From: Phycisphaerae bacterium
GTDB lineage: Bacteria; Planctomycetota; Phycisphaerae; UBA1845; CAIVHJ01
Length of the DNA stretch: 64,000 nucleotides
Direction: 5' to 3'
Assembly (NCBI GenBank): GCA_022072405.1
Contig: JAJVHX010000022.1
Coordinates: 22,618-86,617, forward strand
Under the pieces are notes generated by a model. The model saw nothing but the letters and a program-made list of their open reading frames with translations, did not search any database and was not told where the DNA came from. Below are positions 4,563 to 64,000 of this stretch, in pieces (position 1 is the first letter of the stretch; every line of letters starts with the position of its first letter). Made by a program: the position numbers and the translations under genes.

Positions 4563-6407
4563 ATGTATATGCCTGGACTGGGAGCACATTACGATCACAA
4601 AATTTGTGAAACGATCTTTGAGGTCTGGGCACCCTCAGCCCGGCAGGTGCGGGTAGAACTGGCGGCAGGATCAAATAAATATGAATTGAATCGTGCGCCA
4701 GATGGATACTTCAAAGGTCAGTTCTCGATTCAACCTGGGGCTGAATACTATTACACACTGGATCATCAGGCTAGACGACCCGACCCGGCTTCACGTTATC
4801 AACCTCACGGCGTGCATGGACCATCAGCGGTGGTGGATCAATCTTACCCGTGGCAGGATCAGTCCTGGCGGGGGGTGGCGTGGGACCAGTTGGTTATCTA
4901 CGAACTGCATGTCGGCACCTTCACCTCACCGGGTACATTAACCGCGATAATCCTGCACCTGGATGAACTGGTGGAGTTGGGTATCACCGCGCTCGAATTA
5001 ATGCCGATCGCACAGTTTCCCGGTACGCGCAATTGGGGTTATGACGGGGTCTGCCCCTTTGCGGTGCAGAACAGTTATGGCGGTCCCGCCGCATTAAAAC
5101 AACTGGTCGACGCCTGCCATCAGCGTGGCTTGGCGGTATTGCTGGATGTGGTATACAACCATGTCGGGCCGGAGGGGAATTATCTGGCTGAATTCGGCCC
5201 CTATTTTTCCGATGAATTCCGCACGCCCTGGGGAGCCGCCATGAATTTTACTGGCCCATACAGTGATGCGGTGCGACGGTTCTGCATTGAAAATGCTCTC
5301 TACTGGCTGAACGATTGTCATCTGGATGGACTTCGCCTTGATTCAGTCCATGCTATTTATGACCAGAGCGCCCGACCATTCCTCGCCGAGTTGAGTCACG
5401 CGGTGCAGGAGTTCGCCAAAGCCAGCGGACGCCGGCTGCACCTGATCGCGGAAAGTAATCAGAATGATCCTCGACTTGTGCAACCTGTCGAACAAAACGG
5501 AATGGGTCTGAATGGCATGTGGAACGATGATTATCATCACGCTCTACATGCTCGTCTGACCGGTGAATGCGATGGTTACTACGCTGGTTTCGGCGAGGTG
5601 CATCATCTTGCCACAGCGCTGCAAGAAGGCCTGGTTTACCGGGGAGAATATTGTCCCTATCGACAGCGTCGTCACGGCCAGCCCCTTGGAAGAGTACCCG
5701 TTAAACGACTGATCAACTCCGCTCAGACTCACGATCAGATCGGCAATCGTATGCTCGGTGAGAGACTGACCACGCTAGTCGAACCGGCGGCGCTACGCCT
5801 GGCGGCGGCTGTGACCTTATTGGGACCGGCAACTCCGATGCTTTTTATGGGTGAGGAATATGGAGAAACCGCGCCGTTTCAATTCTTTATCAACCATAGC
5901 GATCGGCAACTGATCGAAGCCGTTCGAAATGGCCGGAAGCAGGAATTCGCCGCGTTCGCCTGGAAAGGAGTCACTCCCGATCCGCAGTCGGAAAGTACAT
6001 TTCAGAACAGCCGGTTAAATCAGACCCTGAAACAACAATCTCACCATCGCGCAATATGGGAATTATATCACCGCTGCCTGACTCTTCGCCGTGAACTGCA
6101 GCCGCATATCTATGAACCCGCAGCGCAACGGAAAATCATGGAGTATCCTAATGGCCTGATCGTATTGGAATATCAATGGGTGAATCAGCGGGCAGCGATG
6201 ATCATTAATTTTAATAACTGGGAGATCGAGTCACCGCAACCACCAATGCCAGCGGGAAAGTGGAACAAGCGACTGGATACCGCTGATCCGCAGTGGGGAG
6301 GAACCGGCAGCAGTTACGGTGAACAATTGCTAACCAGTGATCAGACCCCATGGTGTTTATCCCCCTGGCAGGTACTGTTGCTGACGCCCACCGCTACAGA
6401 TGAGTAG
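4563..6407 (+). CDS. treZ: Malto-oligosyltrehalose trehalohydrolase (GH13, TreZ-like)
   Basis: GH13 catalytic regions LELMPIAQFPGTRNWGYDGV, GLAVLLDVVYNHVGPEGNY, DGLRLDSVHAI, and N-terminal E-set-like domain. Architecture typical of TreZ. Confidence 0.75.
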   Translation: MYMPGLGAHYDHKICETIFEVWAPSARQVRVELAAGSNKYELNRAPDGYFKGQFSIQPGAEYYYTLDHQARRPDPASRYQPHGVHGPSAVVDQSYPWQDQSWRGVAWDQLVIYELHVGTFTSPGTLTAIILHLDELVELGITALELMPIAQFPGTRNWGYDGVCPFAVQNSYGGPAALKQLVDACHQRGLAVLLDVVYNHVGPEGNYLAEFGPYFSDEFRTPWGAAMNFTGPYSDAVRRFCIENALYWLNDCHLDGLRLDSVHAIYDQSARPFLAELSHAVQEFAKASGRRLHLIAESNQNDPRLVQPVEQNGMGLNGMWNDDYHHALHARLTGECDGYYAGFGEVHHLATALQEGLVYRGEYCPYRQRRHGQPLGRVPVKRLINSAQTHDQIGNRMLGERLTTLVEPAALRLAAAVTLLGPATPMLFMGEEYGETAPFQFFINHSDRQLIEAVRNGRKQEFAAFAWKGVTPDPQSESTFQNSRLNQTLKQQSHHRAIWELYHRCLTLRRELQPHIYEPAAQRKIMEYPNGLIVLEYQWVNQRAAMIINFNNWEIESPQPPMPAGKWNKRLDTADPQWGGTGSSYGEQLLTSDQTPWCLSPWQVLLLTPTATDE

Positions 6408-6489
6408 AAGCGGATTCAGAATTCAATGAGCCGAGGGCTTTAGCCCGCGCGAAGCTTCAATTGGTGATTTTGAGATCAGGTCTAGTATT

Positions 6490-9345
6490 CTATGGGTTGA
6501 TCAATAGCGGTCGATATTGATCCGCCTGAGCAGGTTGATTCCAGGCTTCATAGAGGGCGATCAGGCGCTGCAGCGCCGTCTGTGTCTGAGTATCTTCCAC
6601 ACCCTTGGCTTCGCGCAGTTGGTTGAAGCCGTCGAGTAGTAGAGGCTCTGCATCCGTGTAACGCTGCTGGTGAGTCAGTGTGTTGCCCAGCGCACTGGCG
6701 GTCGCAGCAGTCGTCCAATGGCCGGCAGGTTGCAGCAGTTGACGCATTTGCCAGCATTCCCGATACCTGGTTTCCGCTTCCGCCCAGCGTTCCTGCTTTT
6801 CAAAAAGATCACCTAACGCGAACAGCGACTGGGCAGTCTGCGGATGCTGCTCACCCAAACTCTGCTGACGGAGAGTCAGTGCTTCGGTAAGCAGTGGTTC
6901 GGCGGCATTCAGTTCACCCTGGGCAATCAGCACTTTGGCCAAATTGGCTTCTCGTGTGGCAATACTCTGGGGATTATCCGCTTCCACACTGCGGGTCATC
7001 TGCACCGCTACTTCGAGGCGCTGGCGGGCTTCAATTAATTCACCCTGATTGAGCAGGGTCATTCCCAGATTGTTCAGCGCCGATGCAGCCGCTGGACTCG
7101 ACGGACCATATTGCGTGATTTCAGCAGCCAGAATATCACGAAAGACTGTTTCGGCTGAGGCGTATTCTCCCTTTCCATATAATATCGCCGCCAGATTGTT
7201 GCGGGCGATATTGAGCATCTGATGATTCGGGCTGAGTAGCTGGGTGCTCAGAAGCAAACTTTCTTCAAGCAGGGTCTGTGCTTCATCCAGCCGATTCTGA
7301 GCGTAAATTGTTTCCGCCAGATTAATTTTCAGTTCAACGATGGATGAGTGATTTTCACCAGCAAAATCGATCATCATGGCCAGGGCCTGGCGATAAAGCG
7401 TTTCTGCTTCCGCATCATGACCTCGGACCCGCTGCAACCGAGCCTGCTCTTCCAGATGACCGGCGATGCGGATGTGATCTTCACCCCACAATCGTAGGCC
7501 CATGCTTTGGGCTTCGGAGAGGAGTGGCTCAGCCTCGTCCAGCTTCCCACTTCCCAGCAGAAAATTACCCAGCTTGGAGAGGGCATTTTCCACGTCAGGA
7601 TGATCCTGCGGATGAGCCGTCCGCAAGAGTTCCAGTGTCTGGCGATATAGATTTTCAGCTTCAGCTATCTGACCGGTATTCGCGTAATAAGAAGCCAGAT
7701 CATTCATGATCTGGGAGATTTCCGGCGATCCGGCGGGCAATAGCTGCTGGCGAATTTGAAGTGCAGAATCCAACTCCGGCTTGGCTTCGTTATAACGACC
7801 CGCAGCCTGTAATATCTGACCTAGAATGTAGTGTGACTTCGCAACGGTCAGATGTTGAGCACCCAGCAGATCGATCTGGATCTGAAGGGCGGTGCGCAGT
7901 AGTTGCTCCGCTTCAGGATACTCAGCCTGATGTCCGCGCAGGTAGCCAATGGCCGCCTGAGTAGCCGCCGTGTCGATGTGATGCACGCCAAACAACTGCT
8001 GACGAAGCGTTAAAGCCCGCTGCAACTGTTCATCCGCTTCTGGATAGAGACTCAGTGCCGTGTAAGCTTCCCCCATCGTCTGCCGTACCGCTGCCTCCAC
8101 CTCTGGAAAGTCCTGTAGCTGAGTAGTGGCGTCACTGGCTGCCTGATCCAGAACTTCGCGTACGGTGATATCCGTGCCCCCAATATCTGGATTGATGGAA
8201 GCCAGCATCTCCTGCAGGAAGTCACTGATATGCTGTGCGACCTGGCGGGCCTGCGTTTCATTCTGTCGGGCCCGATCCGAAAGTTGCCAGAGTGAAAAAG
8301 TGATGATCGAAAAGCCAGCCACGACTATAAACAGCAGGATGGCCGATATAAATGGCCCTCGATGTCGTCGGGCCAATTTCCCCAGCTGGTAGGTCAATGT
8401 GGGGGGGTGGGCCTGGATGGCTTCGCCGCGCAGATATCGCCGTATGTCATCAGCTAAATCGGTTACTGATTGATAGCGTCGACTCGGCTCCTTGTCGAGA
8501 CATTTGAGGACGATCAGCTCCAGTTCTCGATCCAGTTCCGGACGCAGGCGACTGGGCGAGAGCGGCTGAGCCTGTTCGATGCGTGTGACCGCTTCCGTCA
8601 GGTTGGTACCGACTGGATAGGGCAATTGGCCGGTCAGCATCTCATACAGCACAATGCCAAGTGAATAGAGATCCGATCGGGTATCGATTTTTTCCGGCTG
8701 ACCATGCAACTGTTCTGGTGCTGCATAGGCCAGCGTACCGGCGAATTGCATGGTGAGCGTCTGCAGCACCGGCTCGGAAATCAGCCGGGCCAATCCGAAA
8801 TCAAGGACATGGGGCTGGTCCTCACGATCCACCAGAATGTTGCCCGGCTTGATATCCCGATGCAGCACGCCGCGCTGATGAGCATGTTCCAGGGCGGTAC
8901 AGACCCGCAGAAACACTTCCAGTTGGTCGCGTAAAGCACGCGGGGTACCGGTATCGGTATGGGCCCAGCGGGTAATGGGCTGGCCTTCGATCCACTCCAT
9001 GGCCAACAGCGGCTGGCCATCCACATCTTCGCGGCTGAAAACGGTGACGATATTGGGATGCTTCAATTGGGCGGCGACTTCGATTTCCCGTTCAAAACGC
9101 AACCGGGCCTGCTGACTGGTGAGGGATCCGGCGAGCAATCGCTTGATGGCCACATCCCGTCCCGTACCGGGTTGCCGGGCGCGATAAACAATACCCTGCC
9201 CGCCGCGATTAATCTCGGCCAGCAGTTCAAAGCGGCCGAGTTGCCCCAGCACCAGCGGGGCTTCAGCGTCGCGTAACTGGCTGAGCCAACTATCGTCGGC
9301 CCGATCCAGCAGAAAATCAGCCATTTCCGGATTCAGCTTGACCAT
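6490..9345 (-). CDS. Membrane Ser/Thr protein kinase with C-terminal TPR-repeat domain
   Basis: Hanks kinase motifs GQGIVYRARQ, VAIKRL, HRDIKPGNILVD, DFGLA. One TM (ISAILLFIVVAGFSIITFSLW) followed by about 550 aa of TPR-like repeats. Confidence 0.85.
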   Translation of the reverse strand: MVKLNPEMADFLLDRADDSWLSQLRDAEAPLVLGQLGRFELLAEINRGGQGIVYRARQPGTGRDVAIKRLLAGSLTSQQARLRFEREIEVAAQLKHPNIVTVFSREDVDGQPLLAMEWIEGQPITRWAHTDTGTPRALRDQLEVFLRVCTALEHAHQRGVLHRDIKPGNILVDREDQPHVLDFGLARLISEPVLQTLTMQFAGTLAYAAPEQLHGQPEKIDTRSDLYSLGIVLYEMLTGQLPYPVGTNLTEAVTRIEQAQPLSPSRLRPELDRELELIVLKCLDKEPSRRYQSVTDLADDIRRYLRGEAIQAHPPTLTYQLGKLARRHRGPFISAILLFIVVAGFSIITFSLWQLSDRARQNETQARQVAQHISDFLQEMLASINPDIGGTDITVREVLDQAASDATTQLQDFPEVEAAVRQTMGEAYTALSLYPEADEQLQRALTLRQQLFGVHHIDTAATQAAIGYLRGHQAEYPEAEQLLRTALQIQIDLLGAQHLTVAKSHYILGQILQAAGRYNEAKPELDSALQIRQQLLPAGSPEISQIMNDLASYYANTGQIAEAENLYRQTLELLRTAHPQDHPDVENALSKLGNFLLGSGKLDEAEPLLSEAQSMGLRLWGEDHIRIAGHLEEQARLQRVRGHDAEAETLYRQALAMMIDFAGENHSSIVELKINLAETIYAQNRLDEAQTLLEESLLLSTQLLSPNHQMLNIARNNLAAILYGKGEYASAETVFRDILAAEITQYGPSSPAAASALNNLGMTLLNQGELIEARQRLEVAVQMTRSVEADNPQSIATREANLAKVLIAQGELNAAEPLLTEALTLRQQSLGEQHPQTAQSLFALGDLFEKQERWAEAETRYRECWQMRQLLQPAGHWTTAATASALGNTLTHQQRYTDAEPLLLDGFNQLREAKGVEDTQTQTALQRLIALYEAWNQPAQADQYRPLLINP

Positions 9346-56259: not shown

Positions 56260-56301
56260 CAGACTTTAGAGGTCTGTAGCAGGTTCGACTCCTGCACACC
56301 A
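56260..56301 (+). other. tRNA-like remnant: anticodon-arm-like hairpin (CAGAC-TTTAGAG-GTCTG) plus canonical T-arm (GCAGG-TTCGACT-CCTGC) plus ACACCA, abutting the tRNA-Met 5' end
   Basis: T-loop consensus TTCGAnT and 3' ...CCA, but no D-arm or 5' acceptor strand can be paired. Confidence 0.4.
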
Positions 56302-56375
56302 TGCAGATAGCTCATGGGTTAGAGCAAACGGCTCATAACCGTTGGGGAGCGGGTTCGAATCCCGTTCTGCAGCCA
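56301..56375 (+). tRNA. tRNA-Met/Ile2 (anticodon CAT)
   Basis: D-arm GCTC-ATGGGTTA-GAGC, anticodon stem AACGG/CCGTT with loop CTCATAA, T-arm GCGGG-TTCGAAT-CCCGT, acceptor ATGCAGA/TCTGCAG (1:72 A•G mismatch). Ends uncertain by ±2 nt. Confidence 0.65.
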
Positions 56376-56712: not shown

Positions 56713-57846
56713 ATGTTCGGTATGGTTCGGATTAAGTCTTATGAGTTCGGGTTATTGTTTCGGTACGGTGATTTCCGCAAGTTACTGATTCCGCGCAACT
56801 ATCGCTTCTGCAGCAAACTGTGGAGTTCCAAGCGGGCGATCGTGGAGATCGTTAATACACTGGAGACCCGGTTTGAACACCCGCTGTTGGAAGTATTGAT
56901 TCGACATCCGGCAGTGCGTGAACGACTGGAAGTGGTGGAGTTGAACGATATGCAGCGGGCGATCGTCTGGAAGGATGAGCGACTGGCTTATATTTTGGGG
57001 CCAGGTCGTCATGCCTTCTGGAAGGCGCCGGCGGTACTGCGTATCGAATTGTTCGATGCCCGGACCTTGCGTCTGGCGCATGACCGGCTTGATGCCATCG
57101 TCAACTTTGCCGGGTCCAGCAAGTGGCTGACCGGTGTGGACGTAGCCGATTATGAAGAGGCTCTGTTGCTCAAGGATGGCCGGATCGTGGAGCGACTGGG
57201 CGAAGGCCGCCACGTCTTCTGGAGCGGCGTGAATCGAGTAACCTGGAAGGCGGTGGATCGCCGGGAACAGGTAGCCGATGTGGCTGGTCAGGAGATCATG
57301 ACCAGTGACAAGGTTACACTGCGCGTGAATCTGGCCGTTGTGTACCAGGTGACCGATGCACTGAAGGCGGTGACTGTGGTCAGTGACTATGCTCAGGCGT
57401 TGTACCGTGAGGCTCAACTCGCCTTGCGGGCCGCGGTAGGTACTCGCAGCCTGGACGCGTTGCTGGCGGATAAGGAATCGGTCGGCGGAGAGGTGCGCAA
57501 TGTGCTCTCCGGGCGTGTGGCGGAGTTCGGTGTAGTGGTGCGTAGCGTCGGGCTCAAGGATATTATCCTGCCCGGTGAGATGAAGACCATTTTGAATCAG
57601 GTGATCGAGGCGGAGAAGTCCGCGCAGGCCAACCTGATCAAACGCCGGGAAGAAACCGCCGCAACTCGCAGCCAGGTCAACACCGCCAAGTTGCTGGCCG
57701 AAAACCCCATCCTGGCCCGGATGAAGGAACTGGAGATGATTCAGGAAATTCTGGCTGGGGCCAAGGTCACTTTTGTGCTGGGCAACGGCGAGTTGACCAG
57801 CCAGATTCGCCGGCTGACCAATGCTGAGGAATCCGGTGATGATTAA
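56713..57846 (+). CDS. SPFH/band-7 (stomatin/flotillin/HflC-like) domain protein with about 200-aa N-terminal extension and no obvious TM
   Basis: C-terminal SPFH core (VTLRVNLAVVYQVTD…GLKDIILPGEMKTILNQVIEAEKSAQANLIKRRE…). Confidence 0.7.
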   Translation: MFGMVRIKSYEFGLLFRYGDFRKLLIPRNYRFCSKLWSSKRAIVEIVNTLETRFEHPLLEVLIRHPAVRERLEVVELNDMQRAIVWKDERLAYILGPGRHAFWKAPAVLRIELFDARTLRLAHDRLDAIVNFAGSSKWLTGVDVADYEEALLLKDGRIVERLGEGRHVFWSGVNRVTWKAVDRREQVADVAGQEIMTSDKVTLRVNLAVVYQVTDALKAVTVVSDYAQALYREAQLALRAAVGTRSLDALLADKESVGGEVRNVLSGRVAEFGVVVRSVGLKDIILPGEMKTILNQVIEAEKSAQANLIKRREETAATRSQVNTAKLLAENPILARMKELEMIQEILAGAKVTFVLGNGELTSQIRRLTNAEESGDD

Positions 57847-57901: not shown

Positions 57902-58074
57902 GGTGCTGCATCAATTATGTCTCATTCCTTTTGCTTCGCCCCGATTCAATTGAAGATTCATCCCAATGCGGATAGAATCAAGCGGATCGATTTGCCGATA
58001 AGTGAAATGATAGACATGGCTACTGGGTAGCATTGACAGGTGGGCTATCGGTTGTTGCTGATTTATTCTGTATT

Positions 58075-58122
58075 GCGGGTGTAGCTCAATTGGTAGAGCA
58101 TCAGCCTTCCAAGCTGGACGCT
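58075..58122 (+). pseudogene. Truncated tRNA-Gly(TCC): acceptor 5' strand, D-arm and anticodon arm intact; T-arm and 3' acceptor strand missing
   Basis: GCGGGTG-TA-GCTC-AATTGGTA-GAGC-A-TCAGC-CTTCCAA-GCTGG, then unrelated sequence with no T-arm. Confidence 0.6.
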
Positions 58123-58412
58123 GTCGTCCGATCCTCAAGTATTACAATAAGTAACGATTTAACAAGTACAATCCCCAGCAATAACCCCAGCAGTTGTACA
58201 CTGAATCAGATGATTGAAGCCGATCTGCAATTGCTGGTCGAGCGTTGGCCGGTGCTGCCGGCGGCGGTGCGGGCGGGGATCGTGGCGATGGTCAAAGCTT
58301 CCGAGGAGAAAAAAGAATGACCGGAGGGGCCCCCATCGACGGGCAGAATGTTTCCCGCACCCCCGGTCTTGCGAGCAAATGACCTCAACTTATTAACTCC
58401 CGGCCCGGAGCC

Positions 58413-58934
58413 TTGTTTTTACAACAGGGAAATCAGCTTATGAATAAGATACGAGACAATAAGTCCAAGGCCGTCAGGCGTGGCTTTCTGGAGCGGTTGC
58501 AGGCGAATCAGGTTCGTAATGGTGAAACAGGTCATGGGTCCGCCGATAGCGCCACATATTCAGAATGTACAATTCCTGCCGAATTTGCTGGCCTTCCCCT
58601 GGCGACCGATCTTCGCCGGACGATCGAATGGGTCGCTGCCAACCTGGTTGTGCCGTATGGCCGGGAAGATATGGCCACCTGTCCGAGCCAGAATTCTTAT
58701 GCGTTATATGACTGGAGCAGGCAATCCGCTCGTAACTGCGATGTGTTCTGGACTACCATCTTCACCAAGTTAGTGCCGTCGAGGTCGGAGCAGGAGAACG
58801 GGCCGCGATATGAAGATGACGGACGCGATCTCACCTGGGCTTTTGAGCAGATTGAAGCGGCTTTGAAGCGTGAGGAAAATGTGCTTCCATTGGCGAGGGA
58901 GCAAGATGAGGAAGTGTCCAATGGTGAATCATAA
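58413..58934 (+). CDS. Hypothetical protein (173 aa), island-borne
   Basis: Intact ORF with no recognised domains. Confidence 0.35.
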   Translation: MFLQQGNQLMNKIRDNKSKAVRRGFLERLQANQVRNGETGHGSADSATYSECTIPAEFAGLPLATDLRRTIEWVAANLVVPYGREDMATCPSQNSYALYDWSRQSARNCDVFWTTIFTKLVPSRSEQENGPRYEDDGRDLTWAFEQIEAALKREENVLPLAREQDEEVSNGES

Positions 58935-58953
58935 GGGATGATGTGATTGGGGA

Positions 58954-59238
58954 ATGATGCAGATGGCGGGTCGGCCAAAAACAATGGCAAAGAAAATCAC
59001 AGAACTGGAAGCGAGGGCCTTGCAACTAGCGCAGGATTATTTTGAGTTAATGCCCAAAATGTATCGTGATCAGGTTAATCCCCAAGACCCAATTAACCAA
59101 TCATGGAATAAGACGTTGGATCAGGTGATGAGACTACTAAAAGCCATAGAGCAGTTAGGAGATTTGTATCGGGCCAAGGCTGGAATTCTAGACCCCGGCC
59201 CAATAACAAGTTTTCAGGCGGCCCTCCAAAAACAATAA
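58954..59238 (+). CDS. Hypothetical protein (94 aa), island-borne
   Basis: Intact ORF 20 bp after the previous one. Confidence 0.3.
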   Translation: MMQMAGRPKTMAKKITELEARALQLAQDYFELMPKMYRDQVNPQDPINQSWNKTLDQVMRLLKAIEQLGDLYRAKAGILDPGPITSFQAALQKQ

Positions 59239-59583
59239 TCAGTTACACATATCATCGAATATCAGAACAACGAGACTAAACGGGTTCCCGAACAACCTGA
59301 CATCAATACGATTGAGATAATTCCGATCAAAGCCCGGCCCATGTTGTTTTCTTTTTCAAAAAGGAGAAGTGTTCACCCGCACAACAACCTTGGACGTATG
59401 GTCGTCCCTCGCGTCGGCGGATTCCGTCTTTGTCACCCAGACGAGCAAGCTGCCGACCGGGTGCTTGCGGTAGAGCGAGAACAATGAGGCCGCGGACCTG
59501 ATCGCGGTTCCACACGTACCCCCGTTAGAACTCGGGCAGAGCCATTGATCACAGGTAAATCTGATCGAGTATCGTGTCTACCT

Positions 59584-60300
59584 TCATTGGTCCTCCTGAA
59601 GCTGCTTGCTCGCACCACGTCGACTTGGCGAGGGTTCGCGCCACGAGAAGTGAAGAAACTCCTCATCTTGCATCCGTATGGATCTGTCCCACCGCTCCTG
59701 TTTCAATTCTCGAAGGAACTTGTGTTCACGCCACAGATGCGGATAAAAATGGCGAAAGACAAAACGAGAGAATCGCCCGATGCTGACAGGTCCCGATACC
59801 GCACAGCGGCAATGCGCCCACAGCATGTGCACATGGGTTGCGGAGTGATCTTCATCCTCATGTTGCCCATCAAAGTCGAATCGTAGCGGTGTTCGGAGCC
59901 GGAGGTGGCCCGAGCCATCGGTGTGATACATGTCGACAACATCAAGCATTGGATCCTCTTCCAGAAAAGCTGGATCGATGTCGTAAGGACATGGGTAAAA
60001 GCAGAGCCGATGTCGCACGAGTGTTAGGCCACGAAAGTCATACGAGAGTTGTATGACGGCCCCATCTGCCAAGACAACCAGGTAATCCTGTGATTCCAGC
60101 AGAGCGCGATACTCATCGATGCTCGCAAACGCGAAATCTGTGAGGCGACTCGATCTCGTTGCGGGTCGTTGAGAAGTGATCCTGGTCAGACTCGGCTCAG
60201 GATGCTGCGGAACCACCGGATTGGCCGTCAGGGCGACTCCTTGGTTCAACAGCAGGTCGGCGTAATCCCGCATCTCCGCCATGAGCTGATTGGGCGTCAT
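59584..60300 (-). CDS. Hypothetical 238-aa protein translationally coupled (ATGA) to the upstream helicase/ATPase gene
   Basis: 4-bp start/stop overlap with ORF 60297..62435. His/Asp-rich (…HEDEDHSATHVH…). No recognised domain. Confidence 0.5.
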   Translation of the reverse strand: MTPNQLMAEMRDYADLLLNQGVALTANPVVPQHPEPSLTRITSQRPATRSSRLTDFAFASIDEYRALLESQDYLVVLADGAVIQLSYDFRGLTLVRHRLCFYPCPYDIDPAFLEEDPMLDVVDMYHTDGSGHLRLRTPLRFDFDGQHEDEDHSATHVHMLWAHCRCAVSGPVSIGRFSRFVFRHFYPHLWREHKFLRELKQERWDRSIRMQDEEFLHFSWREPSPSRRGASKQLQEDQ

Positions 60301-62435
60301 TTGCCCTCCCCAGGCTTGAAGAACTTCTTGAAAGCCTCACGCATCTCAGGTGGCAGATTCTCGATAGCCATGTCGCCGGCCTCAACGGCCTCCACGAACT
60401 CCTGTAGCGTCTTCTGAACGCGGTCAATCTTCGCTCGTTCGCTCGCGGTCCGTTCACGGTGAATCATCCGTAGGCGTGCCAACTCAGGGGCCGTCGGCAC
60501 GGTAAAATCTAACCTGTAGTCATGCGTCCGAATCGCATCGACTTCCGCAATCAGCTCATCCATGTCTGGACCGATTCCGTAAAGACGCACCCAGGCACGC
60601 GAACGAGTAATCGCCGTAAAAAGGATGTTTCTGACTTTGATGAGCTCGTGGCCACCGACGCAGTATTGGCTGTGGAGCACGTATACCATTGGTGCCTCAT
60701 TTCCCTTTGCACGATAGATGTTCGCGAGAGCCACAGATCCCTTCGCGAAAATCTCATCGGCACTTGTCGAGACACCAGCAATGTGCGACTGGATACCGCG
60801 TCGAGCCAGCGAATTCATGACAGCCGCAGCACGGCGCTTTGCCGTGAGTACATTGGGCAAGATGATCAGAATGTCGTCCGGTTCGAGTTCGTCGTCTGTA
60901 AGATTGCGCTGTATCTCTGCCGCGACTGTTTCAGCTTGGTGATCGTCATCATCCAGCTTCTGGCATACAATCGCATCCTCCCGATTCAGATGCGCCGAAA
61001 AATAGGCAGGATAGCTGTTCTCCGATCGTTTAAGGCTGACCTGCTGTCCGAGATTCGGACTGCCATCAAGCACCGTGTATCCAATCTCGGACCACAAGCC
61101 GGGGTCATCAAACAACTGTACCAAGCCCCCATCGCGATAGATTCCAAACCCAAGGGCGTGAGCGAGTGTCAGCGCCCATGGCGTGTTGCGGTAGCAAACC
61201 GGCAAAGTGATGTCCTGGCGAGGCTCACCGGGGGTGTGGGTCAACTGAATCCGTGGCCTGCCGGCCGAGTCCTTTCCGAATAGTTCCTCAAGCGGTGGCA
61301 TGCTTGTGTCGGACAAGTTCTGTAGCTCGTCGTACGCCCAGATAATGCGCTTTGCGTCGCTAGTGAAGTCATATACAAGGTGGAAAAAGGACCATGGAAG
61401 GTCCTGAGCTTCATCGATCAACACTGCGTCGTAGATCGGCTCAACACGTCGGCCTTTCGTGGCGGAAAGTAACTCACGGCAAATCCCGTGGAATGCTTCG
61501 TTCATCCCGTACGTCGTCTTGGCGTAGAGATAATTGCGCGGCGGCATGCCCACACTCTCGGCCATCAGGGCATATACACCCGGCTTTGCCGCGCTGCCCC
61601 ACGCATGGATGATCTTCAACCGGTCCCAGTTCGGCTCGTCGTTCGAATGCTCAAATGAAAAGCGCCGGACCAAGTCCGTAAGCTGCTGATAGAGCGACCG
61701 CGTATGGAAAGTAAGAGCGATGTTCCAATCGGGGTTCTGCGCGTGAAGGTATGCTGCTTTGAGGGCTAGGACGACCGTCTTGCCCGACCCCGCTAACCCA
61801 CGGATGCGTTGCGGGCCGGCCGGCGTCTCGATTGCAGCTCGCTTTTGCCACTGATCAAGATTGGCGATTTCTCGCTCGATTTCACGCATGACAGCGCCAC
61901 GCGAATCGCCACGAGCCACATTCGCTCGCTTCTTGCTCGGCTTGATCGTTGTCACCCGCTGGAGGGCGGCATTTAGATGACGCTGGTACTGTGGATCGAA
62001 CTGATCGCAACCGCCCAAGACCGTGCTGAGAGTTCCTGGACCCGCCACCAACAGATCACGACCAGCGGGAACCTGAAGATCGTCGGGAAAAAAGCTGATC
62101 ACGTTGATTGGTATGGCCAGATCGCGTCGGCGACGCAACGCTAGGTGCCGCCCCAAGTTCGTCTGGATGGCGAAATACAGTGTGTCCTGCTTCTCCTGTA
62201 CACGGTTCCAGAATTCGTCATTCGGCGGCTGTCCCAGTCCGTTGCCAATGGAAAAAACGACCAAGCCGAACTGGTCGCATATGAGGAGCGCCTCTACGAA
62301 GATGCTCTCATCGGCCGATGAGAGCACCGGGTAGCCGATATAGAGCGTACCGTCGACGTTGAGCCCGCCGATCAGATCGACGAGCTGGCTCGTCACGATC
62401 GGGTTCTTTGTCTGGCCGTATACTACTTCAAGCAT
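60297..62435 (-). CDS. SF1 (UvrD/DUF2075-like) helicase/ATPase with about 160-aa N-terminal uncharacterised, possibly degenerate NERD/PD-(D/E)xK-like domain. Defence-island-type nuclease-helicase candidate
   Basis: Walker A GLAGSGKTVVLALKAAYL, Walker B/DEAQ box VLIDEAQDL, motif VI-like NIYRAKGNEAPMVYV. N-terminal LYIGYPVLSSADESIFVEALLICDQFGLVVFS. Confidence 0.7.
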   Translation of the reverse strand: MLEVVYGQTKNPIVTSQLVDLIGGLNVDGTLYIGYPVLSSADESIFVEALLICDQFGLVVFSIGNGLGQPPNDEFWNRVQEKQDTLYFAIQTNLGRHLALRRRRDLAIPINVISFFPDDLQVPAGRDLLVAGPGTLSTVLGGCDQFDPQYQRHLNAALQRVTTIKPSKKRANVARGDSRGAVMREIEREIANLDQWQKRAAIETPAGPQRIRGLAGSGKTVVLALKAAYLHAQNPDWNIALTFHTRSLYQQLTDLVRRFSFEHSNDEPNWDRLKIIHAWGSAAKPGVYALMAESVGMPPRNYLYAKTTYGMNEAFHGICRELLSATKGRRVEPIYDAVLIDEAQDLPWSFFHLVYDFTSDAKRIIWAYDELQNLSDTSMPPLEELFGKDSAGRPRIQLTHTPGEPRQDITLPVCYRNTPWALTLAHALGFGIYRDGGLVQLFDDPGLWSEIGYTVLDGSPNLGQQVSLKRSENSYPAYFSAHLNREDAIVCQKLDDDDHQAETVAAEIQRNLTDDELEPDDILIILPNVLTAKRRAAAVMNSLARRGIQSHIAGVSTSADEIFAKGSVALANIYRAKGNEAPMVYVLHSQYCVGGHELIKVRNILFTAITRSRAWVRLYGIGPDMDELIAEVDAIRTHDYRLDFTVPTAPELARLRMIHRERTASERAKIDRVQKTLQEFVEAVEAGDMAIENLPPEMREAFKKFFKPGEGK

Positions 62436-62469
62436 ATCAACTCTCCTCGCCGTCGTTAGACGTGACCGC

Positions 62470-63309
62470 CTAAACCACCAGCTTCCTCCGAAGCAGCAAC
62501 CCTTCGTCGTTCCGTGCGTGCAGCGTTAATCGCACGTACGGCTCTTCGCTGATCGATTTGGGCGGAGGCGTCGTGGTCGTCACGATGTACTGAAACGAGA
62601 CCGACCGCTTTGCAAAGAGGGCTTCAAGCCGGGCAATGAGATCGAACAGCCGGTGATACATCGCCTCCTCCATGTCGGCCTCACGCGGGCTGTCGTGCAG
62701 GACCAGGCGGGGGTGACCGCCGAGCCCGCAAATGCTGGCAATAAGGCAGGCCACGTCGAAGCCGAGCACCGTCGCTGACGTGCCCAACGCTGCTCCCGTC
62801 GCCGCCACGTTCGCGTTCGGACGTGGATGCAGAAACCTCGCGTCAATCTCGATCTGGCCGCCCGCATCCTCGCCCAGCAGGTCCTTCAAGGTGCCATCGA
62901 AATGGCGAGAGAGAACGCCGAGCGACTTCCCCACTTCCTCACGAGCCTTCTCCTGCTTGCGGCTCGAAGCCTCGATCGCCTTCGCCTTCGCTTCCAACTG
63001 GTTTTCCAGACGCCCAAGGTTGTCCCATAGCTGCCCGATCCGGTCCGCACGTTCGAGCAGCAGGCTGAAGCGGCCAATCTGCTCACGCACCCCGGAAACT
63101 TGGGTGTCCAGTCGGTCTCGTTCCGCTTGCCGGCGTGCATCCGCTCGCCGGGCTTCCGTCTGACACTTCACGAGTTCCTGATCGCACGTCGTTACCTGTG
63201 ACGTGAGCACGGCGATCAGCTCATTCGTCTCGTCGATTCGTTGCTGATGGCGTGGGTCACGAGTGCCAGCTACCGACTCATCGGACTTGCCGGGGCAGCC
63301 GCGTCGCAC
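62470..63309 (-). pseudogene. 5'-truncated ABC/SMC-like ATPase (coiled-coil plus Walker B/D-loop LVLHDSP, signature region). No Walker A-bearing N-terminal half upstream
   Basis: Sequence resembles the C-terminal half of RecF/RecN/SMC-type ABC ATPases. Upstream DNA (63310-63760) is non-coding with stops in all frames. Confidence 0.5.
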
Positions 63310-63775
63310 GGCCGCATCCTTCGTCTGAAAGAGGTGATACCATCGCTCCTAGCTCAGTTTTAAGGGGGCAGTCGCCATGATCCGGCGGATCATCCAAAGA
63401 CCATGAAAATCAGGTATAGTCGGGTAACGGCCTTTGGGGAGGCCGTCACTGGGTTTTGACGTAACGCTTAAACCTGTTGAGACAGCTGCCTAAGCAGAGT
63501 TATTTTCGAAGTAGGTCAATTTGTATGGCTTTCGTTTACAAGCAGGCATAGCAAAATAATGATCGGTGCGCTTATATTGGTATCCGCAACATAATACGAG
63601 TGGAGGCAACTGGTTGCAACATTGTGCGACGGGGTCTGGGCAGGCCAGCAGTTTGACTTAACCAGATTGAGCAATATTGACCTCGAATTTTCCCCATCGC
63701 GTGCGTGCGTGAGGTTGGCCAGTTACGGTCCACACTGAATCACTTATCGGCGGGCAGGGGATTATGGGCCGCGTG

Positions 63776-64000
63776 TTTAACTACCACCATCCACCATCGC
63801 CACCTCAACCATTGTGACCGCTTCCATGTGGGCCGTCATCAATTGCTGAAAATTCGTCCGTAGATTCCGCTGGGGTTCCGTGAGCATGGCGGTAACGGCG
63901 GTTTCATACTGAGCCTTCGCCGTTTCATTCACCTCATCCTGATACCAGTTGCGGGCGTCGAGCAGAACTGTGTCCCGCTGCCGTGTGGCAGCCAGCAGGG
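63776..64000 (-). CDS. Partial CDS (C-terminal 74 codons) of a hypothetical protein continuing beyond the window end
   Basis: Open frame on the minus strand from the window edge to TAA at 63776-63778 (…QQLMTAHMEAVTMVEVAMVDGGS*). Confidence 0.4.

What the first reader, a model, noticed from the sequence alone, without database searches (positions are those of the whole stretch)
59584..63309. Decayed defence-island module: coupled nuclease/helicase-like ATPase plus partner, and a beheaded ABC/SMC-like ATPase
A 712-aa protein with an SF1 UvrD/DUF2075-type core (GLAGSGKT, VLIDEAQDL) carries an unusual 160-aa N-terminal domain, possibly a degenerate NERD/restriction-endonuclease-like fold. It is translationally coupled to a 238-aa His/Asp-rich protein of unknown function. 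Immediately upstream lies the C-terminal half only of an ABC/SMC-like coiled-coil ATPase (LVLHDSP Walker B), whose N-terminal half is absent. These genes are visibly GC-richer than the surrounding chromosome and sit next to tRNA remnants. This is the usual signature of anti-phage or anti-MGE systems carried on integrative islands, here partly eroded. The helicase plus 238-aa pair could be an undescribed two-gene defence system.
Basis: partly seen in the sequence, partly recalled or inferred. Interest (0 to 1): 0.6.

Follow-up and report, generated by a model that had tools for sequence, protein, structure and literature searches.

The report
Known helicase–DUF2290 defence pair, plus remnant
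The two-gene pair is an intact copy of an already described anti-phage system (Helicase+DUF2290), sitting next to the dead back half of a Lamassu-like ATPase gene in a Phycisphaerae genome, so the locus is ordinary even though nobody yet knows how this system works.

Summary
All three ORFs exist exactly as described, on the minus strand: 238 aa (59584-60300), 712 aa (60297-62435) and 279 aa (62470-63309).

- **The pair is a known system.** The 712-aa protein matches PADLOC's 'Helicase' model of the Helicase-DUF2290 system end to end (E 6.8e-230). The 238-aa protein is a DUF2290 protein (Pfam E 4.8e-37). This is the Helicase+DUF2290 system of Rousset et al. 2022, which blocks phage T7. It is not undescribed.
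- **The pair is intact.** All family-invariant residues are present and the genes overlap by ATGA. The helicase lies directly upstream of DUF2290 in 19 of 23 genomes from several phyla. Relatives sit inside DISARM-like and BREX loci and on plasmids.
- **The 279-aa ORF is a truncated remnant.** It is the C-terminal ~47% of a distant LmuB/DUF2326-like SMC-type ATPase, and homology stops at an in-frame TAG.
- **Composition.** Only the remnant is a clear GC outlier. Codon usage marks both the helicase and the remnant as foreign.

Verdict: a new member of a known kind, of low interest. The mechanism of the system remains open.

The parts
59584..60300 (-). DUF2290 gene (238 aa), second gene of the Helicase+DUF2290 system
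   Evidence: - Pfam PF10053: E 4.8e-37, 127.8 bits against a cut-off of 25.
- PADLOC DUF2290 models PDLC02998 and PDLC02999: E 9.7e-38 and 6e-27.
- Carries all 25 invariant columns of the 13-sequence family alignment, including D79, H97, C104, R136, R140, D142, H152, H156, C164 and R165.
- AF2 model pLDDT 84.
60297..62435 (-). Helicase gene (712 aa), first gene of the Helicase+DUF2290 system
   Evidence: - PADLOC PDLC03002 'Helicase': E 6.8e-230, protein residues 1-706 on model positions 1-704 of 707.
- Pfam UvrD_C_2 (39.4 bits) and UvrD-helicase (24.4 bits), both above their cut-offs.
- 38% identical over the full length to the helicase of an E. coli IncI plasmid pair.
61941..62435 (-). N-terminal domain of the helicase (aa 1-165), with a PD-(D/E)xK restriction-endonuclease-like fold
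   Evidence: - AF2 pLDDT 84, pTM 0.78.
- D42, E43, D/E48, Q83, D84 and Y/F87 are conserved.
- Beta3 reads G-L-V-(A/V)-F-x-(F/L/I), with no (D/E)xK motif (F61 in 112 of 120 homologues).
60531..61880 (-). SF1 (UvrD/PcrA-type) motor core (aa ~186-635)
   Evidence: - Walker A GLAGSGKT at 61776-61799.
- Motif II VLIDEAQDL at 61398-61424.
- YRN, RAKGNEA and TAITRSR are also present. All are invariant or nearly invariant in the family.
- The closest solved relative by profile is PcrA, through the P-loop region only.
60297..60300 (-). ATGA stop/start overlap between the helicase and DUF2290 genes
   Evidence: - The sequence reads ggggagggcaaATGAcg.
- Overlapping junctions also occur in relatives L002, L006 and L035.
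62470..63348 (-). 3' remnant of a distant LmuB/DUF2326-like SMC-type ABC ATPase gene. The annotated ORF (279 aa) starts at the GTG at 63309; the frame is open from 63348.
   Evidence: - PADLOC LmuB models match only their positions ~350-640.
- The 605-aa relative aligns only over its residues 321-605.
- Homology starts directly after the TAG at 63349-63351.
- No Walker A motif is present.
- GC 0.625, GC3 0.736, codon-usage z 5.2.
63352..63776 (.). Non-coding spacer at the truncation point. It may hold the promoter for the remnant-helicase-DUF2290 transcript.
   Evidence: - No homology to any LmuB-like N-terminus.
- No repeat elsewhere in the window.
- One sigma-70-like match on the minus strand at 63619-63591; this is weak, since hit counts equal those in shuffles.
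- Only 34 nt separate the remnant stop from the helicase start.
58075..58132 (+). Truncated tRNA-Gly(UCC) lacking the T arm. It probably marks the edge of an old integration site.
   Evidence: - Rfam tRNA: 31.6 bits, E 0.0015, with 19 model positions replaced by 5 nt.
- Not called by ARAGORN.
- No matching 3' half anywhere in the window.
56301..56374 (+). Intact tRNA-Met(CAT)
   Evidence: ARAGORN and Rfam at 56.3 bits.

Best explanation
**What it is.**
- Positions 59584-62435 hold an intact, horizontally acquired copy of the known two-gene anti-phage and anti-plasmid system Helicase+DUF2290 (DefenseFinder Rst_HelicaseDUF2290, PADLOC Helicase-DUF2290).
- It lies in a Phycisphaerae (Planctomycetota) genome.
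- It sits directly behind the dead 3' half of a distant LmuB/DUF2326-like SMC-type ATPase gene (62470-63348).

**Shown.**
- The helicase has three parts: an N-terminal PD-(D/E)xK-fold domain lacking the canonical (D/E)xK motif, an SF1 UvrD-type motor with all motifs, and a conserved C-terminal helical tail.
- The partner is a ~230-aa stand-alone DUF2290 protein with invariant Asp, His and Cys residues and a fold with no solved relative.
- The two genes move as a cassette and are translationally coupled.

**Inferred mechanism (about 0.35 likely in this form).**
1. The two proteins form a complex.
2. The SF1 motor loads on foreign replicating or linear DNA, such as T7 ends or plasmid replication intermediates, and translocates using ATP.
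3. DNA is then cut or processed, either by the nuclease-fold domain through its conserved acidic/QxxxY site or by DUF2290 acting as a metal-dependent effector.
4. This stalls replication and triggers DNA-damage signalling.

**Expression (inferred).** The cassette has no room for its own promoter. It is probably transcribed from upstream, through the LmuB-like remnant.
For: **Identity**
- PADLOC Helicase model: E 6.8e-230, full length. DUF2290 models: E 9.7e-38. Pfam DUF2290: E 4.8e-37.
- Rousset et al. 2022 showed that an ATP-dependent helicase plus a DUF2290 protein specifically inhibits T7. The system is tracked by DefenseFinder and PADLOC.

**Integrity**
- All helicase motifs are present.
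- All family-invariant residues are present.
- The genes overlap by ATGA.

**Linkage and mobility**
- The helicase lies directly upstream of DUF2290 in 19 of 23 genome loci, spanning Planctomycetota, Chloroflexota, Acidobacteriota, Myxococcota, Actinomycetota, Alpha- and Gammaproteobacteria.
- Nucleotide similarity to the nearest relative (82.6%) covers 59639-62435 only, which is just the two genes.
- Codon usage of the helicase is z 4.7 from the host genes.

**Defence context of relatives**
- After a DISARM-like SNF2/Eco57I-methylase/DrmA set and before GmrSD.
- After a PLD-SNF2 gene, DUF1156 and DUF499, and near an integrase.
- Inside a BREX operon on the Thioflavicoccus plasmid.
- On an E. 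coli IncI plasmid.

**Mechanistic hints**
- PAO1 genes PA1372/PA1371 are assigned to this system. Loss of the PA1372 helicase abolishes the rep-dependent SOS induction and the fitness cost of plasmid pNUK73.

**Remnant:**
Against: - No activity was tested for this copy. A lactococcal homologue gave no protection against the phages tried.
- The nuclease-fold domain lacks the canonical (D/E)xK motif in all 120 homologues, so it may be non-catalytic.
- DUF2290 has no detectable similarity to any nuclease or other enzyme, so its effector role is a guess.
- The AF2 models rest on 13 and 32 sequences. I could not inspect coordinates, so I did not check whether the conserved residues cluster.
- GC content of the pair is within the host range.
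- The rest of the contig beyond 64000 could not be retrieved, so the island limits and any integrase were not seen.
- The promoter assignment rests on one consensus match that is no better than shuffles.
Confidence: 0.88

Rival explanations
1. The three ORFs form one new three-gene system. In it, a naturally 'headless' SMC-like protein (coiled coil plus C-terminal ABC lobe) works together with the helicase and DUF2290.
For: - The 279-aa ORF is uninterrupted, has a plausible AAGGA Shine-Dalgarno sequence (a ribosome-binding site), and ends 34 nt before the helicase start.
- Many relatives are also called as 206-330-aa or ~446-aa proteins without a P-loop on long contigs. One of these (P0154) recurs in at least 24 contigs.
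Against: - None of the loci with a helicase-DUF2290 pair fetched from elsewhere carries an LmuB-like match.
- Nucleotide similarity to the closest cassette stops exactly at the helicase start codon.
- GC differs (0.625 against 0.561 and 0.548).
- Homology to full-length relatives stops at an in-frame stop codon.
- At least one 'short' relative is simply a miscalled start of a 605-aa gene with a P-loop.
- A Walker B lobe without a Walker A lobe cannot bind ATP on its own (established ABC ATPase knowledge).
Confidence: 0.04
2. The pair is a housekeeping DNA-repair or replication helicase with an accessory factor, not a defence system.
For: - The motor is UvrD/PcrA-like.
- GC content is close to that of the host.
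- The locus lies on a chromosome next to tRNA and ordinary metabolic genes.
Against: - Distribution is patchy across phyla, and an 82.6%-identical cassette occurs in a MAG binned to a different phylum.
- Codon usage is the second most deviant in the window.
- Relatives are embedded in BREX and DISARM-like loci and sit on plasmids.
- There is experimental anti-T7 activity.
- PA1372 is dispensable and was recently acquired in PAO1.
Confidence: 0.03
3. The system mainly targets plasmids and other replicons, or acts as a selfish addiction module, rather than targeting phages. Phage T7 would be an incidental victim.
For: - The PAO1 helicase PA1372 is responsible for the cost and SOS induction caused by plasmid pNUK73.
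- Protection in E. coli was limited to T7, and none was seen in Lactococcus.
- Copies sit on conjugative plasmids next to RelE/ParE and stability genes.
- No hit was found in 50,697 phage records.
Against: - The original discovery was in P4-satellite and prophage anti-phage hotspots.
- Neighbours are classical anti-phage systems.
- The two roles are not mutually exclusive, and nothing here separates them.
Confidence: 0.15
4. The helicase-DUF2290 pair in this genome is itself a decaying, non-functional relic, like its neighbour.
For: - It lies beside a truncated gene and a broken tRNA.
- Decayed copies do exist elsewhere: L022 has a helicase split by ~1.4 kb, L029 has a frameshifted helicase, and L013 and L027 have lone DUF2290 fragments.
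Against: - Both ORFs are full length.
- All invariant and motif residues are retained.
- The start/stop overlap is preserved.
- The HMM alignment is end to end.
Confidence: 0.05

Closest known systems
Helicase+DUF2290 anti-phage system (Rousset et al. 2022; DefenseFinder Rst_HelicaseDUF2290; PADLOC Helicase-DUF2290)
   Same: - Same two protein families, in the same order and with overlapping genes.
- Full-length HMM matches.
- 38% identity over the whole helicase to an E. coli plasmid copy.
   Different: - The host is a Planctomycetota MAG, not an enterobacterial P4 satellite or prophage.
- Here the pair sits behind an LmuB-like remnant and near a broken tRNA-Gly.
- Activity of this copy is untested.
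PA1372/PA1371 of Pseudomonas aeruginosa PAO1 (San Millan et al. 2015)
   Same: - Assigned to the same system by prediction tools.
- Horizontally acquired, always found as a pair, with mobile-element genes (recombinase, integrase, transposase) around it.
   Different: I did not compare the sequences directly. The known phenotype there is plasmid cost and SOS induction, not phage defence.
Helicase-nuclease defence proteins: Nhi, the NERD+UvrD candidates (PADLOC C3a187), Hachiman HamAB and Gabija GajAB
   Same: An SF1/SF2 helicase is combined with a PD-(D/E)xK-type nuclease fold, in one chain or as a partner. Weak HMM overlap exists with the C3a187, GajB and Nhi motors.
   Different: - The matches cover the motor only (E 2.5e-17 down to 1e-2).
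- There is no GajA or HamA partner.
- The nuclease-fold domain is N-terminal and lacks (D/E)xK.
- The partner DUF2290 does not resemble HamA or any solved nuclease.
RecB/AddA-type helicase-nucleases
   Same: A UvrD-like SF1 motor is joined to a PD-(D/E)xK domain carrying a QxxxY-like helix motif, Q83-D-x-L-Y87.
   Different: - Domain order is reversed.
- Motif III (D/E)xK is absent.
- No sequence-level match was found.
- The resemblance is an inference from fold and motifs only.
Lamassu LmuB / DUF2326 (YydD) SMC-type ABC ATPases
   Same: The 279-aa ORF matches the coiled-coil and C-terminal Walker B/D-loop lobe of LmuB models. Relatives give sub-threshold DUF2326 hits.
   Different: - The match is distant (E ~1e-8).
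- The N-terminal P-loop lobe is missing.
- No LmuA or LmuC partner is visible.

Membership tests
Helicase+DUF2290 (Rst_HelicaseDUF2290 / PADLOC Helicase-DUF2290) | A protein with the DUF2290 (PF10053) domain | tested here: met
   Pfam E 4.8e-37, 127.8 bits against a cut-off of 25. PADLOC PDLC02998 E 9.7e-38.
Helicase+DUF2290 (Rst_HelicaseDUF2290 / PADLOC Helicase-DUF2290) | A ~700-aa helicase matching the system-specific helicase profile over its whole length | tested here: met
   PADLOC PDLC03002: E 6.8e-230, 763 bits, protein residues 1-706 on model positions 1-704 of 707.
Helicase+DUF2290 (Rst_HelicaseDUF2290 / PADLOC Helicase-DUF2290) | The two genes are adjacent and co-oriented, with the helicase first | tested here: met
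   ATGA overlap. The same arrangement occurs in 19 of 23 genome loci and 5 metagenome loci.
Helicase+DUF2290 (Rst_HelicaseDUF2290 / PADLOC Helicase-DUF2290) | Intact ATPase/helicase motifs | tested here: met
   GLAGSGKT, VLIDEAQDL, YRN, RAKGNEA and TAITRSR are present and family-invariant.
Helicase+DUF2290 (Rst_HelicaseDUF2290 / PADLOC Helicase-DUF2290) | Protection against phage (T7 in the original report) | not testable with these tools
   Known only from Rousset et al. 2022 for an enterobacterial copy.
Lamassu LmuB (SMC-type ABC ATPase) | N-terminal Walker A (P-loop) head lobe | tested here: not met
   The 279-aa ORF has no P-loop. LmuB models match only from position ~350 onward. Residues 1-320 of the 605-aa relative have no counterpart in 62400-64000.
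Lamassu LmuB (SMC-type ABC ATPase) | Coiled coil plus C-terminal Walker B/D-loop lobe matching LmuB profiles | tested here: met
   Five LmuB models hit at E 1.8e-8 to 3.5e-4, and LVLHDSP is present. The match is distant.
Lamassu LmuB (SMC-type ABC ATPase) | An adjacent LmuA effector (with or without LmuC) | tested here: not met
   Upstream lie 425 nt of non-coding DNA and an unrelated ORF end with no PADLOC hit. The window ends at 64000.
NERD domain (PF08378) | Sequence match to the NERD profile | tested here: not met
   No NERD hit at E <= 0.1. The PADLOC 'NERD+UvrD' model matches only the motor, residues 187-392.
PD-(D/E)xK nuclease superfamily | Alpha-beta-beta-beta-alpha-beta restriction-endonuclease-like core fold | tested here: met
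PD-(D/E)xK nuclease superfamily | Catalytic D ... (D/E)xK signature | tested here: inconclusive
   The beta2 Asp/Glu48 and D42/E43 are conserved, but beta3 is G-L-V-A/V-F-x-F/L/I with no acidic residue or Lys in 120 homologues. A relocated catalytic residue cannot be excluded without coordinates.
DUF2075-type SF1 helicase | Match to PF09848 | tested here: not met
   Not among the Pfam hits at E <= 0.1. The hits are UvrD_C_2, UvrD-helicase and AAA_19.
Gabija GajB | Full-length GajB match with an adjacent GajA (OLD/TOPRIM ATPase-nuclease) | tested here: not met
   Only short GajB stretches match, at E 8e-6 to 2e-2. There is no GajA-like neighbour.

The most novel reading that the evidence does not exclude
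The Helicase+DUF2290 system may work by a mechanism unlike Hachiman, Gabija or Nhi.
- DUF2290 has a confidently modelled fold with no solved or viral structural relative and an invariant Asp/His/Cys cluster (D79, H97, C104, D142, H152, H156, C164). It could be a new kind of metal-dependent effector or sensor.
- The helicase's (D/E)xK-less nuclease-fold domain could then have been repurposed as a DNA-end or DNA-structure reader.
- This Planctomycetota copy would be one more handle on that unsolved mechanism.
Probability: 0.3. Interest if true: 0.55.

Novelty: new member of a known kind. Interest (0 to 1): 0.2.

Why it matters
For genome annotation, this turns three 'hypothetical proteins' of a Phycisphaerae MAG into a recognised defence system plus a pseudogene remnant. 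It also removes a false 'new system' lead.

More broadly, the locus adds to a pattern. The promoter-less helicase-DUF2290 cassette repeatedly lands directly downstream of other defence genes: a DISARM-like methylase, BREX pglX, and here an LmuB-like gene.

The system's mechanism is still unknown and neither protein has a solved structure. Two observations made here give concrete mutational targets for anyone studying the system:
- the helicase carries a PD-(D/E)xK fold without the (D/E)xK motif;
- DUF2290 has no solved structural relative.

Tried and rejected
**Fetching the contig beyond the window.** Exact-protein look-ups either failed or returned only a 1,069-nt Logan contig.

**Finding a solved structure for DUF2290.**
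- Single-sequence search and profile search found nothing.
- BFVD gave nothing at E <= 1e-3.
- The afdb50 library was unavailable.

**Solved relatives of the helicase.** Only the PcrA P-loop region matched.

**The 3' half of the tRNA-Gly and att-type repeats.** No pattern match was found, no meaningful direct repeats, and the spacers have no second copy in the window.

**The ORF end at 63780-63998 and the small ORFs at 58033-59238.**
- The ORF end had no PADLOC hit and no significant Pfam hit.
- The small ORFs had no PHROG hit.
- Neither set resembled anything in the fetched loci.

**Rfam.** The 'skipping-rope' hit at 60244-60324 (20.8 bits against a gathering score of 36.7, E 0.42) and a viral CITE hit were rejected as chance.

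**Promoter and terminator scans.** Counts were no higher than in shuffles, so they are used only as weak hints.

**Labels rejected.** NERD, DUF2075, Gabija and Hachiman membership were rejected (see the membership test).

**'Headless' LmuB-like proteins as a real family.** I considered this. At least one is a miscalled start of a 605-aa gene. The rest remain unresolved.

Full report
**1. The observation**

The three minus-strand ORFs are at the stated coordinates.
- 59584-60300 encodes 238 aa.
- 60297-62435 encodes 712 aa.
- 62470-63309 encodes 279 aa from a GTG start.

The quoted motifs are present.
- GLAGSGKT is at aa 213 and VLIDEAQDL at aa 338 of the 712-aa protein.
- LVLHDSP is at aa 202 of the 279-aa protein.

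The helicase stop and the 238-aa start overlap as ATGA, preceded by GGGGAGGG. The 238-aa protein is 5.5% His and 8.4% Asp. Exact-match proteins in the public collection are named as coming from a Phycisphaerae bacterium MAG (locus tags HJJLKODD_02815-02817, contig 86,617 nt).

**2. What the pair is**

- The 238-aa protein is a DUF2290 protein: Pfam PF10053, E 4.8e-37, 127.8 bits against a cut-off of 25.
- The 712-aa protein matches the PADLOC model 'Helicase' (PDLC03002) from end to end: E 6.8e-230, 763 bits, model positions 1-704 of 707.
- The 238-aa protein also matches both PADLOC DUF2290 models.

These are the two components of the published Helicase+DUF2290 system.
- Rousset et al. 2022 found it in the P4-satellite hotspot. 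[quoted passage not shown] They saw it again in Vibrionales and Bacillales prophage hotspots (PMC9122126).
- DefenseFinder lists it as Rst_HelicaseDUF2290 and PADLOC as Helicase-DUF2290.

The defence interpretation itself is.

**3. Integrity, linkage and mobility**

- All SF1 motifs are present, and they are invariant or nearly invariant in an alignment of 34 helicases.
- The DUF2290 copy carries all 25 invariant columns of its family alignment.
- A scan of one genome per species found 23 DUF2290 loci. In 19 of them the helicase lies immediately upstream on the same strand.
- The four exceptions are two matches at contig ends and two lone DUF2290 fragments.
- Two of the 19 loci carry a disrupted helicase.
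- The hosts span Planctomycetota, Chloroflexota, Acidobacteriota, Myxococcota, Actinomycetota, Alpha- and Gammaproteobacteria.
- A profile search of 1.84 billion cluster representatives gave 1,331 DUF2290 clusters at E <= 1e-3. Among the best 150 listed, nearly all are stand-alone proteins of ~215-250 aa.
- The nearest relative (helicase 90% and DUF2290 84% identical at protein level) shares 82.6% nucleotide identity with the window over 59639-62435 only. That span is exactly the two genes. The unit that moves is therefore a two-gene cassette.

Relatives sit in the following contexts:
- after a DISARM-like set (DrmA/MZB, SNF2, Eco57I-type methylase) and before GmrSD;
- after DUF499/DUF3780/DUF1156 genes and a PLD-SNF2 gene, near an integrase;
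- inside a BREX operon, between the methyltransferase and pglZ, on Thioflavicoccus plasmid pTHIMO01;
- on an E. coli IncI plasmid, where the helicase is 38% identical over its full length, N-terminal domain included.

No match was found in 50,697 phage records.

**4. Composition**

The window GC is 0.530. ORFs of at least 200 aa average 0.537 (sd 0.028).

| Gene | GC | Codon-usage z |
|---|---|---|
| DUF2290 | 0.548 | 1.9 (short gene) |
| Helicase | 0.561 | 4.7 |
| 279-aa ORF | 0.625 (GC3 0.736) | 5.2 |

DUF2290 and the helicase are within the host GC range, and only the 279-aa ORF is a GC outlier. The helicase and the 279-aa ORF are the two most deviant genes in synonymous codon usage relative to the genes left of the tRNA-Met.

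**5. Anatomy of the helicase**

Residues 1-185 were modelled with 32 homologues (pLDDT 84, pTM 0.78). The order of elements is beta, alpha, beta-hairpin, beta, beta, long alpha, beta.

- then Schlafen proteins, BstEII, Card1, Bax1, McrC, Hjc, Hna and DdmD.

No NERD or DUF2075 profile matches.

In 120 homologues:
- The strand that should carry (D/E)xK reads G-L-V-(A/V)-F-x-(F/L/I). F61 occurs in 112 of 120, and there is no acidic residue or Lys.
- D42, E43, D/E48, Q83, D84, Y/F87 (a QxxxY-like spacing), R101 and R104 are strongly conserved.

I read this as a site that is still functional in some way (metal or DNA binding). Its catalytic competence cannot be decided here.

The motor (aa ~186-635) is SF1 UvrD/PcrA-like. 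It hits Pfam UvrD_C_2 and UvrD-helicase above threshold. PcrA is the only solved relative by profile, and only through the P-loop region. A conserved helical tail follows (aa ~636-706).

**6. DUF2290**

The model built from 13 sequences is confident (pLDDT 84, pTM 0.82). It is an alpha/beta protein dominated by antiparallel sheet.
- Foldseek against viral models finds nothing.
- Sequence and profile searches of the PDB find nothing.
- Invariant residues include D79, G80, H97, C104, R136, R140, D142, H152, H156, C164 and R165.

This is compatible with a metal site. I could not inspect coordinates, so that is an inference.

**7. How it most likely works**

Shown:
- The system is a coupled two-gene cassette.
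- It encodes an SF1 motor with a nuclease-fold domain and a partner of unknown fold.
- Relatives sit in defence loci.

From the literature:
- The system blocks T7 in E. coli.
- A lactococcal copy gave no protection against the phages tested.
- PAO1 genes PA1372/PA1371 are assigned to this system.
- Loss-of-function mutations in the PA1372 helicase remove the rep-dependent SOS induction and the fitness cost of plasmid pNUK73.

Inferred (about 0.35 in this form):
1. The two proteins form a complex.
2. The motor engages foreign linear or replicating DNA.
3. Either the nuclease-fold domain or DUF2290 processes that DNA.
4. This gives replication arrest and DNA-damage signalling.

The architecture works like a helicase-nuclease (Nhi, Hachiman, Gabija, RecB/AddA). 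Membership in any of those families was tested and not met (see the membership test).

**8. The 279-aa ORF**

- It matches five PADLOC LmuB models, but only over their positions ~350-640 (E 1.8e-8 to 3.5e-4).
- NCBIfam gives only weak SMC/Rad50 coiled-coil hits.
- A relative in L010 is a 605-aa ORF, once the miscalled start is corrected. Its N-terminus reads ...RIIAHSVGKTLLTRLIRYCLG.
- That relative aligns to the window only with its residues 321-605, and nothing in 62400-64000 matches residues 1-320.
- In the window the frame is open from 63348. The conserved block WYHLFQTK..GCPGK begins right after a TAG at 63349-63351.
- Upstream lie 425 nt of unique non-coding DNA and the end of an unrelated ORF.

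It is therefore a 3' remnant (about 47%) of a distant LmuB/DUF2326-like SMC-type ATPase gene, with no LmuA or LmuC partner in view. It is not a partner of the cassette. None of the loci with a helicase-DUF2290 pair fetched from elsewhere carries an LmuB-like match, and cassette homology stops at the helicase start codon.

**9. Setting**

- An intact tRNA-Met lies at 56301-56374.
- A tRNA-Gly(UCC) 5' fragment lacking its T arm lies at 58075-58132.
- Its 3' half is not in the window.

The stretch from ~58133 to the window end thus looks like an old integration into tRNA-Gly, but no integrase is visible and the far end is outside the window.

Only 34 nt separate the remnant's stop from the helicase start. 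In relatives the helicase starts 14-31 nt after an upstream defence gene. The cassette therefore seems to lack its own promoter and to depend on transcription from upstream. That would also explain why the remnant persists. This is an inference. The sigma-70-like match at 63619-63591 is no better than chance.

**10. Verdict**

The pair is a new member, from a Planctomycetota host, of a known and experimentally validated defence system. The upstream ORF is a pseudogene remnant of an LmuB-like ATPase.

Interest is low (0.2). Residual value lies in the still unknown mechanism of Helicase+DUF2290, for which the fold results here give testable residues.

Noticed in passing
window 58075-58132: This is the 5' two-thirds of a tRNA-Gly(UCC): acceptor, D arm and anticodon arm are intact and the T arm is replaced by 5 nt. 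No 3' half is present anywhere in the window. It is probably the scar of an integration that did not restore the tRNA, or that was later deleted.
   Followed up: partly
window 56713-57846: An SPFH/Band-7 gene (377 aa) sits between the intact tRNA-Met and the broken tRNA-Gly. Its GC3 is 0.69 and its codon-usage z is 2.4, so it may also be acquired DNA.
   Followed up: no
window 58133-59583: Three small plus-strand ORFs (95, 173 and 94 aa) lie between the tRNA-Gly fragment and the DUF2290 gene. The 173- and 94-aa ORFs were scanned against Pfam, PADLOC, NCBIfam and PHROG without a significant hit; the 95-aa ORF was scanned against PHROG only. Whether they are real genes is unknown.
   Followed up: partly
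L007/L008/L009 (P0154, gene at L007 6001-7341): A 446-aa LmuB-like protein without a P-loop recurs in at least 24 metagenome contigs. In the three loci shown it is preceded by a DUF3800 gene and followed by a 377-aa ORF, then a 362-404-aa ORF (radical-SAM-like in two of the three loci) and a large Helicase_C protein, next to an MmeI-type enzyme. It could be a conserved truncated form or an unrecognised multi-gene system.
   Followed up: no
P0136 context (JGI 3300056388, no DNA available): The closest longer relative of the remnant (330 aa) follows a 295-aa ORF, which together make ~625 aa. This pair sits directly after an SNF2 plus Eco57I-type methylase pair. That is the same position the helicase-DUF2290 cassette occupies in L002, suggesting a shared hotspot downstream of DISARM-like methylases.
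   Followed up: no
L035 (Thioflavicoccus mobilis plasmid pTHIMO01) 3846-6699: The helicase-DUF2290 pair is inserted inside a BREX operon, between the methyltransferase and pglZ. A 2-kb hypothetical gene and a UPF0175/DUF3368 pair lie alongside it.
   Followed up: partly
L022 2445-5961; L029 3652-5743; L013 and L027 at 6001-6510 and 6001-6342: Decayed copies of the system exist in other genomes. One helicase is split by a ~1.4-kb insertion (Archangium), one is frameshifted (Acidobacteriaceae MAG), and there are lone DUF2290 fragments without a helicase.
   Followed up: no
L011 3867-6693: The cassette closest to the window's (82.6% nt identity) lies in a MAG labelled Anaerolineae, a different phylum. 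This indicates either recent inter-phylum transfer or a binning error.
   Followed up: no
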